Below are positions 19,500 through 43,882 of a DNA stretch of 64,000 nt, piece after piece (position 1 is the stretch's first letter; the number at the start of each line of letters is the position of its first letter). The stretch lies in assembly GCF_009914755.1 (NCBI RefSeq), contig NC_060936.1. One strand, written 5' to 3'. Under the pieces are notes generated by a model. The model was not told the origin of the DNA and searched no databases. It was given only the letters and a program-made list of their open reading frames with translations. A program made the translations under genes and the position numbers. This DNA is from the human T2T-CHM13v2.0 reference genome, Homo sapiens.

Positions 19500-20771
<1,272 letters not shown>

Positions 20772-21308
20772 CCAGCACTTTGGGAGGCTAAGGCAGGAGG
20801 ATCATTTGAGCCCACGAGTACAAGACTAGCCTGAGCAAGATGGTGAGATCCCATCTCTACAAACATAAACAAAAATTTAAAAATTAAAAATTAGCCAGGC
20901 ATGGGTGCCTGTAGTCCTGCTACTTGGGAGGCTGAGATGGGAGGATAGCTTGAGCCCAGGAGTTTGAGGCTGCAGTGAGCTATGATCACATCACCACACT
21001 GTAGCCTAGGTGACAAAGAGAAACCCAGTCTCTATTTAAAAATAATAATAACAGAACTAAAAGAAAAAAATAGATAAATCCAATATTATAGTTGGTGACT
21101 TTAACACGCTTCTTTCAACAACTGATAGACTTACTACGTACAAAGTCAGCAAGAATATAGAAGAACTTAACAATATCATCAACCCATCTAATTGACATTT
21201 ATAGAATACTCCAACAGCAGAATGCACATTCTCAAGTACCTATAGAACACTCACCAAGGTATACCATATCTGGGCCATAGAAGAAACCTCAACACATTTA
21301 AAATAATT

Positions 21309-21339
<31 letters not shown>

Positions 21340-21736
21340 GGTTAAGAGACAGGGTGTTGCTCTATTGCTCAGGCTGGAGTGCAGTGACACAATCATAGCT
21401 CACTGTAACCTCAAACTCCAGGGCTCAAGAGATCCTCCTGCCTCAGCCAACATGTCTGGCTGATGTTTGAAATTCTTTGTGGAGACAAGATCCCATTATG
21501 TTGCCCAGGCTGGTCTCAAACTCCTGGGGTAAAGGGATACTCCCACCTCAGCCCCTCAAAGTACTGGCATTATTGGCATGAGCCACCACATCTGGCCAGC
21601 ACGTTTTTTAATCATTGTATTTTTCATCATTGTGTATCCTGTGGATATCAGGTGATGTTTATTTTGGATTCTGAACACCACATATACAGCTTGCCAAAAA
21701 ATTAGAATTCATCCCTTCTATTCCTATCCAATTTTC

Positions 21737-23830
21737 TTATAGCACAAAACTCCCAGCCCTAGGTTCTAAGCTATGGCTCTTCAGCGAGACTCACCTCTAG
21801 CAGAGAGAACTACCTCTGACCCATTGGCCTTGTCTGACCAGTTCTATCTGAGCAGCATAGTACAAAGCTGTGCCAGTTTATAGTAGTGTCATGGGATTCT
21901 TGGGATGTCACTTTTCCAGCTGGAAACCTCTGTGGCCAGTGGTGCCTTTGCCCAAGTGTTGCTCGGGCTCACTGTGTTTGTTCCACCCACTTGGCCTGGC
22001 AGGCTGTGCTCTGCTTGTGCTACTGGCCTGGATTCCATGCCTGCCATGGGTGAACCAGATGTGCAGCAGCAAGGGGTGTGTGAGCATGGGGTCTGGCCAC
22101 ACTGTGCACAGCCAGGCATGCCGGCTGCAGCAGACAGGGAGCTCCAGGCACCGGCTCCATGTGAGGTTGTGGCTGGACCAGACATACTGCAAGCAGCTTC
22201 CACTGCAGGCACCAGGGAATGCGGTGGCACCTGGGAGCTTGGAGACACCAGGAACCACAGAGCCCCAAAGAGGGTGTCATAGCCCTGGCTCTGGGAGCCC
22301 CTGGGTCTGGGCTTCTCAAAGAGCCACAGCTCTTCTCTTCTTCTAGTCGCCCACATAGTGGCAAGCAGTGGAGTGACAGGGCCGGGCGGGGGGGGCGGCG
22401 GGCGTGTTTCAGCCCTGTTTGTGTTACAGCTCTTTCAGTTCCACCATTCCTTGGGTCCTGAGTTCTTGTCCATATCCAGGAAGAATGAGGTACACAGACA
22501 ACTGGAGGGCAGGGCAGAGAGGAGCTTCATTGAGCGACACAGCAGCCCTCAGGAGACTGGCAGTGAGTAGCTCCTTTCCACATGCAGGTCGATTCAATGT
22601 CTCTGTGAGTGGCTGAGTCCAAGGTTTTCATGGGCTTCAGAAGGGAGGAAGTGCATGCTGATTGGGCCATGGATGGCCCAGAATAAGCATCATGAGTTCT
22701 CATTCTGGGCGATGGACTCCACCCAGAAGTGACAGTCCGGCACCCAGGCTTCAGGCTGTCCCTGGCTTAAAGGTGGTACTTCACTGGACCTGCACCTTTC
22801 CACCCAGGAGCCTGCCTTCTGCCACCATCAATAATGTCATCCACGGGACCCAAGCTGTTCCTGCTGAGGGGCACTTGCAGACCCCTGCCAAGTCACCCTT
22901 GGCTCCCCCTCAGCCCCTCTCCCATGCTTGTCAGTGTACAAAGTTTAGAGGGGGCCAAGGTGGCAGGGGGCTGGTGTGTCAGCACCGCCAGGAGGGTGTG
23001 CACACATGGCCAGGTCACAACAGTGCTGGGCTTGGCCTCAACTTTGCTCTAAAAACAGAGTGGGAAGAGGCTAGGCAGTGGGAGCATGCACTTCTGAGTC
23101 TGCGGGGGCAGTGAGGCTTCGTAGGCCCCTAAGAGCATAGGGATGCCTGGATCCACAGCTGTGGCTGTGCTGCTGTAGCTGCACCCAGGAGGGTGGGGAC
23201 CCGCCAACTTGAAAGGGGGCGGGGCTCCTGCCTGTTCCTGGCTCTCCCTGGTTCTGTGGAGCATGCAGCCCTCACCACACCTCCCCGGCCGCAGCTGGCG
23301 TCTTTGCAGTGACCACTCCAGATGGGCTGCCACTGCCAGGAGTAGGTTCCCACTCCTGGCAAAAACTGGAACACATTGTGCTCAGGATATTCCTGCCCCT
23401 GCTCACAGTACTCAGTGGGAAAGACACATCTGGCTTTTCCTGGGTCTGATTGAAGCCCGTCTTAACACCTGCAGAACAGAGGCCATGGTATCACCTGGCA
23501 TGCTCCTCCTTATGCCACTGAAATTCCAGAATCCTTGGAGCTGGTGTGTATGGGACTATGTGGCTTTCACACATCCCACCCTGTATAGCCAAATCTTCAG
23601 GGCCTGGCATCAAGTTTAGGAGTCAGCCTGCTCCAGGGCTTTCCTTAGTGCCGGGCCTACTAGATCCTGGGTAGAGAGGACATATGGAAGACACCAGGCA
23701 GGAACTTTGGAAGCCAGGTCTGGCAGAACCAGGGCTCTGCAAATACGAAGCAAGGGACATCAGGGCCTTAGTTTGGGTTCCATATGAAATGGCAGCCAGA
23801 GTGTGTGCAACATGTAGCAGTAAATGATCA
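21737..23830 (-). pseudogene. APOF-like pseudogene, split by a MER52 solo LTR, with frameshifts, stops and an internal deletion
   Basis: Minus-strand peptides HLLLH..AISYGTQTKALM, CQTWLPKFLPGVFHMSSLP, ALRKALEQA, EYCEQGQE..HNVFQFLPGVGTY|Y, GTALYYAAQ, SEVVLSA and KSHSLEPRAGSFVL* are colinear with APOF as recalled (YLLLHPVDATSYGKQTNVLM, CQFLHPKSLPGFSHMAPLP, ALRNALEEA, EDCENEKEQAVHNVVQLLPGVGTFYNLGTALYYATQ, SEVVSSA, KSYDLDPGAGSLEI*). AATAAA at 21658-21663. Confidence 0.88.
21887..23341 (-). mobile_element. MER52-family solo LTR inserted in the APOF-like pseudogene
   Basis: TSD GTAG at 21883-21886 and 23342-23345. Shares motifs with the other MER52 LTRs (CTCTGTGGCC..GGTGCC, GAGTTCTTGTCC, GCACACTCC/GCTCC blocks). 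Confidence 0.85.
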
Positions 23831-24159
23831 GCTGAAGTGGGAGTTAGAAAACAGACCGTTTCACTCACCCATTACCTCCAGGCTTGTGTTCATTTTAGGT
23901 TAAAGCCCAGTTACATAGGAAATGGTACCGCACTGATCTTATTTGATTTCTCCTATTCCCTGGTCACCAGGGCCTTCCTCTGCTTCACTTTCTACTTAAA
24001 TATTTGAGAGCACCAAATTACCAGAGGGTAGTCAGTGAGAGGTGGGCTTTCCCAGGTAGGTTATTCCAGTCCCAGTTCTCTGTCTCATGAGAGGGGACAG
24101 TTGCTTGTCTCTAAGGTCAGTAAGGGCACAATTTTGGCAAACATTTGCCTATTTGCCCT

Positions 24160-24470
24160 GTGGTGTTCTGCTCAAATCTCCCTTCAAGAGAACACAGAGT
24201 GAACATTCTATTTGGCCGACAGCTTCCACTCTTTAGAATGTTCTGCAGTGATCACAGCAGCATCCCTCTCTACAGGCTGCTCTGAGACAATGACAGGTGG
24301 ACAGTGCTAGAGCCCAGCCAAGTCGGCCAGACATGGGACTCCTCAGTCATGTAATCTTCATTCTGGGGCTCTGTATCAACTTGGCCAAGATTTTCTGAGT
24401 AGCACTGTAATTTTTCTCTTTCTCCCTTTCATACATGTGTGACTGTCATCGTGATCTATAGGTTCTCCCA
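24160..24470. mobile_element. Probable old MaLR (MLT1) LTR remnant
   Basis: Weak resemblance to MLT1 consensus as recalled. Confidence 0.4.
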
Positions 24471-24714: not shown

Positions 24715-26716
<2,002 letters not shown>

Positions 26717-26839
26717 CTGTTGGTCTCTTTTTACCCTAAAATTGTTAAGTTCTTCTTTCAAGAGCACAGCAGGGGAAGGGCTGGGGAACTTAGACATATC
26801 GCCAAGTCAGACTGAGATGAGAACTTCTAATCTTACATG

Positions 26840-26845
26840 TTTAAT
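26840..26845 (-). terminator. TIMELESS: Candidate TIMELESS polyadenylation signal ATTAAA
   Basis: tttaat on +, about 570 nt after the stop codon. It is the first AATAAA/ATTAAA hexamer I found on that strand. Confidence 0.55.
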
Positions 26846-27410
26846 ACCAAACACAAAGCAAACACATTCATCATCTAGAGTACTATATTCCAACCCTATC
26901 TCAAATGCAGGAATGGGCCTCTATCTGGTATCTAGAGGATGATCATAGGAAACAAAATGAGGACAGAGGCATCTGGTATCTTCTAAAAGTGGTACAAAAC
27001 TCCCGCCTGTCATGTCATAAAGCTCCCCATCTGGTGCTGCGACCCACCTCCAAGAGAAAGCCAAAGGAACAGACCAATAAAAGGGGTCCGGGGTGCTTTC
27101 TCTATTTCACTCACTCCTCTTATTTGCTAAGGAGCTCCAATAACCAAAAGAAATGGTTCCTAGAAGAAGAGAACTAAATCTCCAGAGAGCTGCTGGGGCA
27201 TACCGATAAAAACTGGGAGAAACAAAGACTGACAGCAGAGAAGTCCAATACTGCTGCTGAAGTTTCTCAGCCTAAATCCGTGAAAGAGCCTGGGATTCTA
27301 CTGCTCTGTCCAGTAAGAGGAGCTTCTGGGTCCTGTATGACCCTTCCAACTCTGACTTGAATGCACCATCTAAAAACGTGTCTATCTCTACCCCTAGGCT
27401 TCTTAGCTCT

Positions 27411-43882
<16,472 letters not shown>

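What the first reader, a model, noticed from the sequence alone, without database searches (positions are those of the whole stretch)
21658..23895. Hidden APOF paralogue that can be rebuilt across an LTR insertion
Seen: removing the MER52 LTR (21887-23341) and one GTAG TSD joins HNVFQFLPGVGTY to Y-KL/GTALYYAAQ. The resulting minus-strand frame follows APOF from signal peptide through propeptide to C-terminus. It ends at TAA 21737-21739, with AATAAA about 75 nt later. A branch point and acceptor (CTAAC..TTCAG, about 23831) and upstream GT donors (about 23868, 23876) suggest a duplicated gene rather than a retrocopy. An internal deletion fuses 'DKA' to 'SEVV'. Knowledge: APOF lies just beyond the window's left edge. 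Inference: this is an old tandem duplicate of the ApoF/ApoN family. It keeps the APOF-type C-terminus, may be intact in other mammals, and could be missed or mislabelled because an LTR splits it.
Basis: partly seen in the sequence, partly recalled or inferred. Interest (0 to 1): 0.8.

Follow-up and report, generated by a model that had tools for sequence, protein, structure and literature searches.

The report
Old APOF-like pseudogene split by LTR
A long-dead extra copy of the apolipoprotein F gene, cut in two by an ancient retroviral LTR, lies just downstream of TIMELESS on human chromosome 12; it is an ordinary gene fossil that the supplied RefSeq gene table leaves unlabelled.

Summary
Window 21887-23341 is a 1455-bp solo LTR with 4-bp target-site duplications (GTAG). 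With the LTR and one duplication removed, a single DNA alignment to APOF runs across the joint (66.5% over 579 nt, E 6e-68).

Homology also covers APOF's promoter, exon 1 and intron 1 (window 23878-24273), the coding exon, the stop codon (TAA 21737-21739) and part of the 3' UTR. It is therefore a duplicated (unprocessed) copy, not a retrocopy.

It is thoroughly dead:
- the start ATG is CTG;
- there are at least six frame changes and several in-frame stops;
- about 262 nt are deleted, on top of the LTR insertion.

The conserved exon-1 donor lies at 24020-24021.

In a protein tree the copy groups (97/96) with a 203-aa rhinoceros "hypothetical protein" and one unnamed fragment, both read in the same shifted frame. 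This group is sister (92/98) to the locus RefSeq calls APONP. It is not ApoN-type. I found no intact orthologue.

It is the ApoF-like half of a third [ApoN-like, ApoF-like] tandem unit.

Verdict: a real, ordinary pseudogene, and a new member of a known kind.

The parts
24022..24273 (-). Homologue of the APOF promoter and exon 1. APOF's TATAAA is GGCAAA here. The start codon ATG is CTG (24033-24035), followed by a 2-nt deletion.
   Evidence: window 23879-24273 against APOF -27719..-27323, 65.6% of 419, E 2e-31. The exon-1 reading was checked against the P0001 N-terminus.
23838..24021 (-). Remnant of the intron-1 homologue. The donor GTAATTTGG is conserved (GT at 24020-24021). At the homologous acceptor, APOF's CTAG reads CTAA.
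23346..23837 (-). Upstream arm of the coding-exon homologue (APOF signal peptide, propeptide and start of the mature part, to PGVGT). It uses three reading frames and carries in-frame stops. The furin-type RxxR|S site is replaced by GKARC.
   Evidence: 390/532 nt identical in ungapped columns; 86/171 APOF-anchored codons identical
23342..23345 (.). Target-site duplication GTAG (upper copy)
21887..23341 (.). Solo LTR, 1455 bp, TG...CA-type ends, inserted in the codon pair T-Y of PGVGTY.
21883..21886 (.). Target-site duplication GTAG (lower copy)
21737..21882 (-). Downstream arm of the coding-exon homologue. In order: YKL; 1-nt deletion; GTALYYAAQ; 4-nt insertion; NWSDKA; junction of the ~262-nt deletion (about 21820-21825); SEVV; 7-nt deletion; C-terminal block with two Trp codons turned into stops. 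It ends at TAA 21737-21739, aligned with APOF's stop.
21669..21736 (-). Homologue of the start of the APOF 3' UTR
   Evidence: window 21669-21808 against APOF -29154..-29017, 67% of 140, E 2e-13 / 4e-12
21658..21663 (-). AATAAA hexamer. It lies in an insertion relative to APOF's 3' UTR, so it is not a conserved signal.
25787..26037 (-). Upstream neighbour in the same duplicated unit: a third copy of the ApoN-type 5' end (5' flank, ATG, signal peptide). It lies 21 nt beyond the end of TIMELESS's last exon.
   Evidence: 213/250 identical to the 5' ends of both other ApoN-like copies; these are the only full matches in the genome
25086..25142 (-). Continuation of the ApoN-type first coding part (residues ~16-34), separated from 25787 by an Alu block (25181-25787).
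   Evidence: DNA 78.6% of 56, E 6e-7; tblastn with bovine ApoN E 4e-4 in a 1.9-kb database

Best explanation
This is a non-functional, unprocessed (duplicated) pseudogene of the apolipoprotein F lineage. It spans window ~21660-24273 on the minus strand.

Origin (inferred). A DNA-level tandem duplication copied a two-gene unit, an ApoN-like gene followed by an ApoF-like gene, including APOF's promoter, exon 1, intron and coding exon. Human chromosome 12 keeps three such units between STAT2/APOF and TIMELESS. Only APOF itself is intact.

Decay.
- The copy lost its reading frame early. A 1-nt deletion at APOF codon ~75 appears to be shared with the rhinoceros orthologue.
- In the lineage to humans it then took a solo ERV-type LTR insertion inside the conserved PGVGT(F/Y)YNLGTALYYA motif, a ~262-nt deletion, loss of the ATG, and more frameshifts and stops.
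- It makes no ApoF-like protein.

Shown: the homology, the lesions, the LTR and its duplication, the tree position. Inferred: the order and dating of events, the shared frameshift (read from other groups' predicted proteins, not from DNA), and the lack of function.
For: Homology.
- blastn across the excision joint: E 6e-68.
- tblastn: E 3e-14.
- Own APOF profile: 50.8/48.5 bits against a shuffle maximum of 8.8.
- Genome-wide, the upstream arm matches only APOF and the APONP locus.
- Homology to promoter, exon 1 and intron 1, with the donor conserved.
- The stop codon aligns with APOF's.

Lesions.
- At least six frame changes, in-frame stops, and the deletion.
- Differences from APOF are spread evenly over codon positions: 53/39/45 of 170/174/172 sites, chi-square p 0.29. 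That is what neutral decay gives.

Tree and relatives.
- Careful tree: (window copy,(P0164 rhinoceros,P0216)) 97/96, sister to the APONP-type clade 92/98.
- P0164 and P0216 run collinear with the window's shifted frame across the codon-75 break: P0216 55/119 identities in one frame; P0164 residues 20-101 in one HSP.
- P0164 reads ..PGGGCSYKLGTAL.. without interruption at the LTR site.

LTR. Copies are 68.5-76.6% alike, so the family is old.
Against: - Pfam found no family in any of the 8 single-frame pieces at E<=10, apart from one chance-level DENR_N hit. P0164 and P0216 fall below PF15148's cut-off (18.5 and 20.4 against 27 bits).
- A genome-wide six-frame search with APOF at E<=0.01 listed 5 matches at 4 loci and not this one.
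- The window and APONP rows in the tree are translations anchored on human APOF, which could bias their placement. P0204 moved between the two clades in the quick and careful trees. The position of the joint clade within eutherian APOF is unresolved.
- At three-way DNA sites the window copy is closer to APOF (264/366) than to APONP (242/366). That fits slow APOF evolution, but on its own it does not show the sister relation.
- Transcription was not tested.
Confidence: 0.92

Rival explanations
1. It is a processed retrocopy of APOF mRNA that landed next to its parent.
For: There is an AATAAA about 75 nt after the stop. APOF has only one short intron, so a retrocopy would look similar over the coding exon.
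Against: Homology continues through APOF's intron 1, exon 1 and 133 nt of promoter. The AATAAA lies in an insertion relative to APOF. It has the same strand and order as the other copies, and an ApoN-like 5' end sits upstream as in the other two units. I saw no poly(A) tract or flanking duplication.
Confidence: 0.01
2. The lineage is, or long was, a working third ApoF-like gene that is still intact and expressed in some mammals. The human copy would then be a late loss.
For: A 203-aa ORF is annotated at the rhinoceros orthologue. The conserved PGVGT-YKL-GTALYYA motif and the C-terminal block are still recognisable.
Against: - The rhinoceros ORF starts in a frame shifted relative to APOF, and its first ~45 residues do not match APOF's signal peptide.
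- All 2 non-human members of the clade, and all 4 of the sister clade, are fragments of 54-203 aa.
- No full-length member turned up among 96 representatives hit by an APOF profile.
- The codon-position profile is flat.
Confidence: 0.05
3. The protein-coding gene is dead, but the locus was co-opted, for example as an LTR-driven or TIMELESS read-through non-coding transcript or as a regulatory element.
For: It lies 1.8-4.4 kb downstream of the TIMELESS 3' end on the same strand. A solo LTR can carry promoter signals (established knowledge, not tested here).
Against: The supplied RefSeq functional-element list has nothing between 11558 and 33102. No conservation beyond neutral decay was seen in the ApoF-like part. 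No expression data are available to these tools.
Confidence: 0.05
4. The resemblance is chance, or a low-complexity artefact produced by choosing frames freely.
For: Individual frame pieces are short and fail Pfam. The two downstream protein hits alone have E 12-15.
Against: DNA E-values are 6e-68 locally and 6e-23 genome-wide. Shuffled controls reach at most 8.8 bits against 50.8. The pieces are collinear from the promoter to the stop codon.
Confidence: 0.005

Closest known systems
APOF (apolipoprotein F / lipid transfer inhibitor protein), the functional gene 50 kb away (window -29745..-27456)
   Same: - Same strand and same two-exon layout: a phase-1 intron after codon 6.
- Homologous promoter, exon 1, intron, coding exon, stop codon and start of the 3' UTR.
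- 73-75% nt identity in aligned columns; 50% of anchored codons identical.
   Different: No ATG, at least six frame changes, in-frame stops, a ~262-nt deletion and a 1455-bp LTR insertion. The furin-type cleavage site and the TATA box are not kept.
The locus that the supplied RefSeq table calls APONP (window -13564..-12862)
   Same: - Also an ApoF-like unprocessed pseudogene with homology over nearly the whole APOF coding exon and the 5' region.
- Sister clade of the window copy in the tree (92/98).
- Shares YKL instead of YNL. Two fragments of its clade (P0195, P0177), though not the human locus itself, share the DPG+AR/VR motif with the window copy.
   Different: - It is a separate copy, 66% identical to the window copy at three-way sites.
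- It has no LTR insertion and keeps the part that the window copy has deleted.
- It has its own clade of fragments in other species (P0195, P0177, P0213, P0204).
Apolipoprotein N (bovine 'ovarian and testicular apolipoprotein N' P0225, mouse ApoN precursor P0258)
   Same: Same Pfam family PF15148 and the same gene cluster next to APOF. The literature describes it as a pseudogene in humans (PMC3282742, passages read).
   Different: Named ApoN proteins hit only the two other loci B1 (-26681..-25945) and B2 (-7183..-6452) plus APOF weakly. They never hit the window's ApoF-like copy. In the tree ApoN is a separate long branch. Only the fragment at 25086-26037 in the window is ApoN-type.
Hypothetical protein HPG69_014981 of Diceros bicornis minor (P0164) and the unnamed fragment P0216
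   Same: They are the nearest relatives (53% identity over 113 columns; clade support 97/96). They share the shifted frame upstream of STQDL, the GKA(R/K)CV motif and the C-terminus ..LEPR..SFVL.
   Different: They are annotated as proteins in another species. P0164 has no LTR interruption at the insertion site and keeps APOF aa ~264-286, which the human copy has lost.

Membership tests
Apolipo_F (Pfam PF15148), as a gene relic | Significant match to a family profile | tested here: inconclusive
   Pfam itself found no hit for 8 single-frame pieces. My own profile from 18 APOF orthologues gave raw frames of 50.8, 48.5 and 10.3 bits against a shuffle maximum of 8.8. The orthologues P0164 and P0216 score 18.5 and 20.4 bits, below the cut-off of 27.
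Apolipo_F (Pfam PF15148), as a gene relic | Conserved PGVGT(F/Y)YNLGTALYYA block and conserved cysteines (C65, C100, C171 of P0001; invariant in 18 of 18 orthologues) | tested here: met
   The block is present across the LTR joint, with one 1-nt deletion. The Cys of ..FCQT.. and ..EYCE.. are kept. The middle Cys is kept only under the gapped alignment.
Apolipo_F (Pfam PF15148), as a working gene | Open reading frame with start codon, signal peptide and pro-protein cleavage site | tested here: not met
   ATG->CTG, deletions in the signal peptide, at least six frame changes, in-frame stops, RxxR|S lost.
Unprocessed (duplicated) pseudogene | Homology to the parent's intron and promoter, in tandem with the parent | tested here: met
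   Window 23879-24273 against APOF -27719..-27323, E 2e-31, with the donor conserved. Same strand, same cluster.
Processed pseudogene | No intron or promoter homology, poly(A) tail, flanking direct repeats | tested here: not met
   Intron and promoter homology are present. No poly(A) tract follows the 3' UTR homologue; an Alu follows.
Apolipoprotein N type | Best match to named ApoN proteins, including their distinct C-terminal mature part | tested here: not met
   Five ApoN-type proteins (P0225, P0258, P0223, P0265, P0264) gave no hit in 21500-24300 at E<=1e-3. P0178 likewise at E<=1.
Solo LTR of an ERV (reader: MER52, ERV1) | TG..CA ends, short target-site duplication, many dispersed copies, host sequence on both sides | tested here: met
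   The 4-bp duplication is GTAG, and a second copy (L008) also has a 4-bp duplication.
Solo LTR of an ERV (reader: MER52, ERV1) | Match to the named repeat family's library entry | not testable with these tools
No repeat library (Dfam/Repbase) is on hand.

The most novel reading that the evidence does not exclude
The APOF-TIMELESS interval is the fossil of a threefold tandem array of a two-gene unit (ApoN-like then ApoF-like on the minus strand): N3-F3 in this window, N2-F2 (B2 and the RefSeq 'APONP' locus) and N1-F1 (B1 and APOF).

The window copy and 'APONP' together form a third, ApoF-derived subfamily. It was already broken in the common ancestor of humans and rhinoceroses.

The locus carrying the name APONP is ApoF-type. 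The sequence matching true ApoN, with a frame change just before the mature peptide as the literature describes, lies about 6 kb away at B2.

The ApoN-type 5' ends are much better kept (85-90%) than the ApoF-type bodies (60-71%). That hints at gene conversion or a retained regulatory role beside the TIMELESS 3' end.
Probability: 0.55. Interest if true: 0.35.

Novelty: new member of a known kind. Interest (0 to 1): 0.25.

Why it matters
- It completes the gene-family census of the APOF/APON cluster. The human genome holds one live gene and, by these searches, at least four dead family loci plus one ApoN-type 5' stub, all on chr12.
- It shows why the copy is easy to miss. No single frame is long enough for a genome-wide protein search, and an LTR splits the best-conserved motif.
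- It gives a datable series of events for the cluster: duplication, a shared frameshift, then lineage-specific LTR insertion and deletion.
- It flags a possible naming problem for APONP.
- It has no evident bearing on ApoF function or disease.

Tried and rejected
- Pfam on 8 single-frame pieces found nothing usable.
- The ESM Atlas look-up of P0178 gave no usable hit. ApoN naming came instead.
- Literature. The listing (APONP/APOF) was dominated by 'apof...' words such as apoferritin. The terms LOC100128676, APOFP1, 'APOF pseudogene' and 'apolipoprotein F pseudogene' found no paper. 'aponp' found 5 papers whose titles and abstracts are unrelated. A search for apolipoprotein N + apolipoprotein F + duplication found 3 papers. 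In PMC6854765 I read only the passages found, and none deals with this cluster. O'Bryan et al. 2004 on ApoN is recalled and was not seen.
- The global DNA alignment misplaced the part after the deletion. The 3' part was re-aligned locally.
- The indel count from the gapped alignment (17 events, 15 frame-shifting) overstates the lesions, because tblastn aligns aa 75-143 without gaps. I therefore report 'at least six' frame changes.
- B1 and B2 were left out of the trees. P0164 was trimmed to residues 46-203 and P0216 to 47-112, the parts in APOF's frame, before the tree.
- ORFs inside LOC100128676 were listed but not followed up.
- The repeat family name, GENCODE/HGNC pseudogene tables, expression data and other mammals' DNA could not be consulted.
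Full report
**Where it is.** The window is chr12:56358001-56422000 of the genome held as G000. I fetched the 30 kb to its left. The APOF ORF comes from the genome itself: L009:1416-2360, minus strand, 315 aa from the exon-2 ATG.

**The LTR.**
- The ORF at 23129-23461 changes character at residue ~39. From there it matches 149 other places in the genome, a lower bound.
- blastn against seven of those copies (7 of 7 matched, 68.5-76.6% identity) bounds the repeat at 21884-23338/23344.
- The ends read TGTCATGG... and ...CTGCCAGGA on the + strand. Other copies end ...CTGCCATCA.
- GTAG lies directly outside both ends (21883-21886, 23342-23345). Copy L008 likewise has a 4-bp duplication.
The family name MER52 could not be tested.

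**The ApoF-like sequence.**
- tblastn with APOF against the 94.5-kb interval gives three collinear minus-strand HSPs upstream of the LTR: aa 49-73, 75-143 and 145-181 at 23740-23342, E 3e-14. Two weak hits lie downstream: GTALYYAAQ at 21874-21848 (8 of 9 identities) and aa 301-313 at 21784-21746.
- With the LTR and one duplication cut out in a script, blastn gives one alignment across the joint: 66.5% of 579 nt, E 6e-68.
- At the joint the copy reads PGVGTY-YKL, then a 1-nt deletion, then GTALYYAAQ. APOF reads PGVGTFYNLGTALYYATQ. The LTR therefore landed inside a block that is largely invariant in 18 of 18 APOF orthologues.
- Further on come a 4-nt insertion, NWSDKA (family consensus NCSDKA), and then a jump of about 262 nt (APOF aa ~200-286) to SEVV. 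A 7-nt deletion follows, then the last 24 codons in register with APOF down to the same stop codon (TAA 21737-21739). Both Trp codons in that block are now stops.
- A profile built from 18 orthologues scores the three raw frames 50.8, 48.5 and 10.3 bits in collinear order. The maximum over 600 shuffled frames is 8.8.
- Genome-wide, the 845-nt upstream arm matches only itself, APOF (E 6e-23) and the APONP locus.
- Against this, Pfam saw nothing in single-frame pieces. A genome-wide six-frame search with APOF at E<=0.01 found four other loci but not this one. The copy really is hidden from frame-by-frame searches.

**Gene structure.**
- APOF's exon 1 encodes MTGLC and the first base of the Gly codon, followed by a GTAATT donor. 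Exon 2 starts after ...TTTCTAG. This was checked against the N-terminus of the orang-utan protein P0001.
- The window copy aligns with APOF from 133 nt upstream of its annotated start, through exon 1, into intron 1: 23879-24273 against -27719..-27323, 65.6% of 419, E 2e-31.
- In the copy, APOF's TATAAA is GGCAAA and the ATG is CTG (24033-24035), followed by a 2-nt deletion. The donor GTAATTTGG is kept (GT at 24020-24021).
At the true acceptor's position the copy reads CTAA where APOF has CTAG.
- The AATAAA at 21658-21663 sits in an insertion relative to APOF's 3' UTR.

**State of decay.**
- Lesions: no start codon; deletions in the signal peptide; at least six frame changes; in-frame stops (three in aa 75-143 by the ungapped alignment, one before NWSDKA, two near the end); the 262-nt deletion; the LTR.
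- 86 of 171 APOF-anchored codons are identical.
- Differences from APOF are flat over codon positions: 53/39/45, p 0.29. The APONP locus shows the same (p 0.74). That is what long neutral drift gives.

**Family context.**
- APOF-like matches in the interval are APOF, B1 (-26316..-26077), the RefSeq APONP span, B2 (-6910..-6569) and the window copy. None lies on another chromosome.
- An APOF-profile search of 1.84 billion representatives gave 96 hits. When these were scored back on the human loci:
  - the ~253-aa proteins P0178, P0185, P0206 and P0215 fit B1 and B2;
  - short fragments (P0195, P0177, P0213) fit the APONP span;
  - the best scorers on the window copy were APOF proteins (112, 104 and 89 bits). 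P0164 scored 73 bits there and 163 bits on APOF, so no representative fits the window copy better than it fits APOF.
- P0178's relatives include 'ovarian and testicular apolipoprotein N [Bos taurus]' and 'apolipoprotein N precursor [Mus musculus]'. These named ApoN proteins hit only B2, B1 and weakly APOF. They never hit the APONP span or the window copy.
- P0164 is 'hypothetical protein HPG69_014981 [Diceros bicornis minor]'. An ApoN-like protein, HPG69_014978, is listed with the same longest-contig length.
- In a careful ML tree (38 rows, 320 columns):
  - the window copy groups with P0164 and P0216 (97/96);
  - the APONP locus groups with P0213, P0195, P0177 and P0204 (96/95);
  - the two groups are sisters (92/98);
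  - together they sit in an unresolved polytomy with eutherian APOF clades, apart from ApoN.
- Caveats: the two human rows are APOF-anchored translations, P0204 moved between the quick and careful trees, and B1/B2 were left out.

**Shared lesion and timing (inference).**
- P0164 (residues 20-101) and P0216 (residues 11-128; 55/119 identical) are each collinear with one window frame across the point (~23665) where APOF homology changes frame.
- Their upstream parts therefore read the frame shifted relative to APOF, as the human copy would. This points to a 1-nt deletion at codon ~75 that predates the human-rhinoceros split.
- P0164 reads straight through the LTR site and keeps aa ~264-286. The LTR insertion and at least part of the deletion are therefore later events on the human side.
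- These inferences rest on other groups' gene predictions, because no mammalian DNA other than the human genome could be read.

**A third two-gene unit.**
- Window 25787-26037 is 85.2% identical (213/250) to the stretches at the 5' ends of B1 and B2, which are 90.4% alike. These are the only full matches in the genome.
- It carries an ATG and an ApoN-type signal peptide. It is cut by an Alu block (25181-25787) and resumes at 25086-25142, ApoN residues ~16-34.
- On the minus strand the order is thus N3-F3, N2-F2, N1-F1: three [ApoN-like, ApoF-like] units, of which only APOF (F1) is intact.
- F-type 5' regions are only 70.8% alike. Why the N-type 5' ends are better kept is unexplained.

**Literature.**
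- PMC3282742 (passages read) places mouse ApoN 12 kb upstream of ApoF. It calls human ApoN a pseudogene with a frameshift before the mature protein. That fits B2, whose two ApoN HSPs change frame near residue 140-150.
- Searches for LOC100128676, APOFP1, 'APOF pseudogene' and 'apolipoprotein F pseudogene' found nothing. 'aponp' gave only papers whose titles and abstracts are unrelated.
- PMC6854765 (passages read) does not treat this cluster.

**Verdict.** The finding is a real, well-described but ordinary unprocessed pseudogene. It is absent from the supplied RefSeq table. Its status in other catalogues is unknown.

Noticed in passing
outside the window: window coordinates -13564..-12862 (L010), -7183..-6452 (L011), -26681..-25945 (L009/L012): The span the supplied table calls APONP is ApoF-type. 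It aligns with nearly the whole APOF coding exon, including the mature part. Named bovine and mouse ApoN proteins hit only two other, unlabelled loci (B2 best, B1), and B2 changes frame just before the mature peptide, as the literature describes for human ApoN. This may be a naming or placement issue and should be checked against the RefSeq record.
   Followed up: partly
window 25787-26037 and 25086-25142 (minus strand): A third copy of the ApoN-type 5' end (5' flank, ATG, signal peptide), split by an Alu block and starting 21 nt beyond the TIMELESS last exon. It is 85% identical to the other two ApoN-type 5' ends, far better kept than the ApoF-type copies. The reason is unexplained: gene conversion or constraint.
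   Followed up: partly
whole interval, window -29745..26037: On the minus strand the family members alternate N3-F3, N2-F2, N1-F1. This suggests a two-gene unit that was duplicated twice.
   Followed up: partly
protein P0031: A 374-aa horse protein with PF15148, 71% identical to human APOF, is named 'Timeless circadian regulator' in UniRef. This is probably a label carried over from the neighbouring gene.
   Followed up: no
proteins P0124 and P0021: The pangolin 'LOW QUALITY PROTEIN' P0124 (370 aa) fuses an ApoN-like N-terminal part to an ApoF-like part. The 416-aa tarsier 'apolipoprotein F' P0021 also matches ApoN at 78% over 39% of the query. These look like gene models run together across neighbouring family members.
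   Followed up: no
window ~21325-21662, 19642-19963, 20744-21089, 24720-25025: Alu-like repeats with dozens of matches in the 30 kb to the left flank the pseudogene on both sides. One begins directly after the 3' UTR homologue.
   Followed up: no
L011 3966-4352 (minus strand), inside the LOC100128676 span: A 128-aa stop-to-stop frame of unknown affinity lies in the annotated pseudogene LOC100128676. What that pseudogene derives from was not worked out.
   Followed up: no
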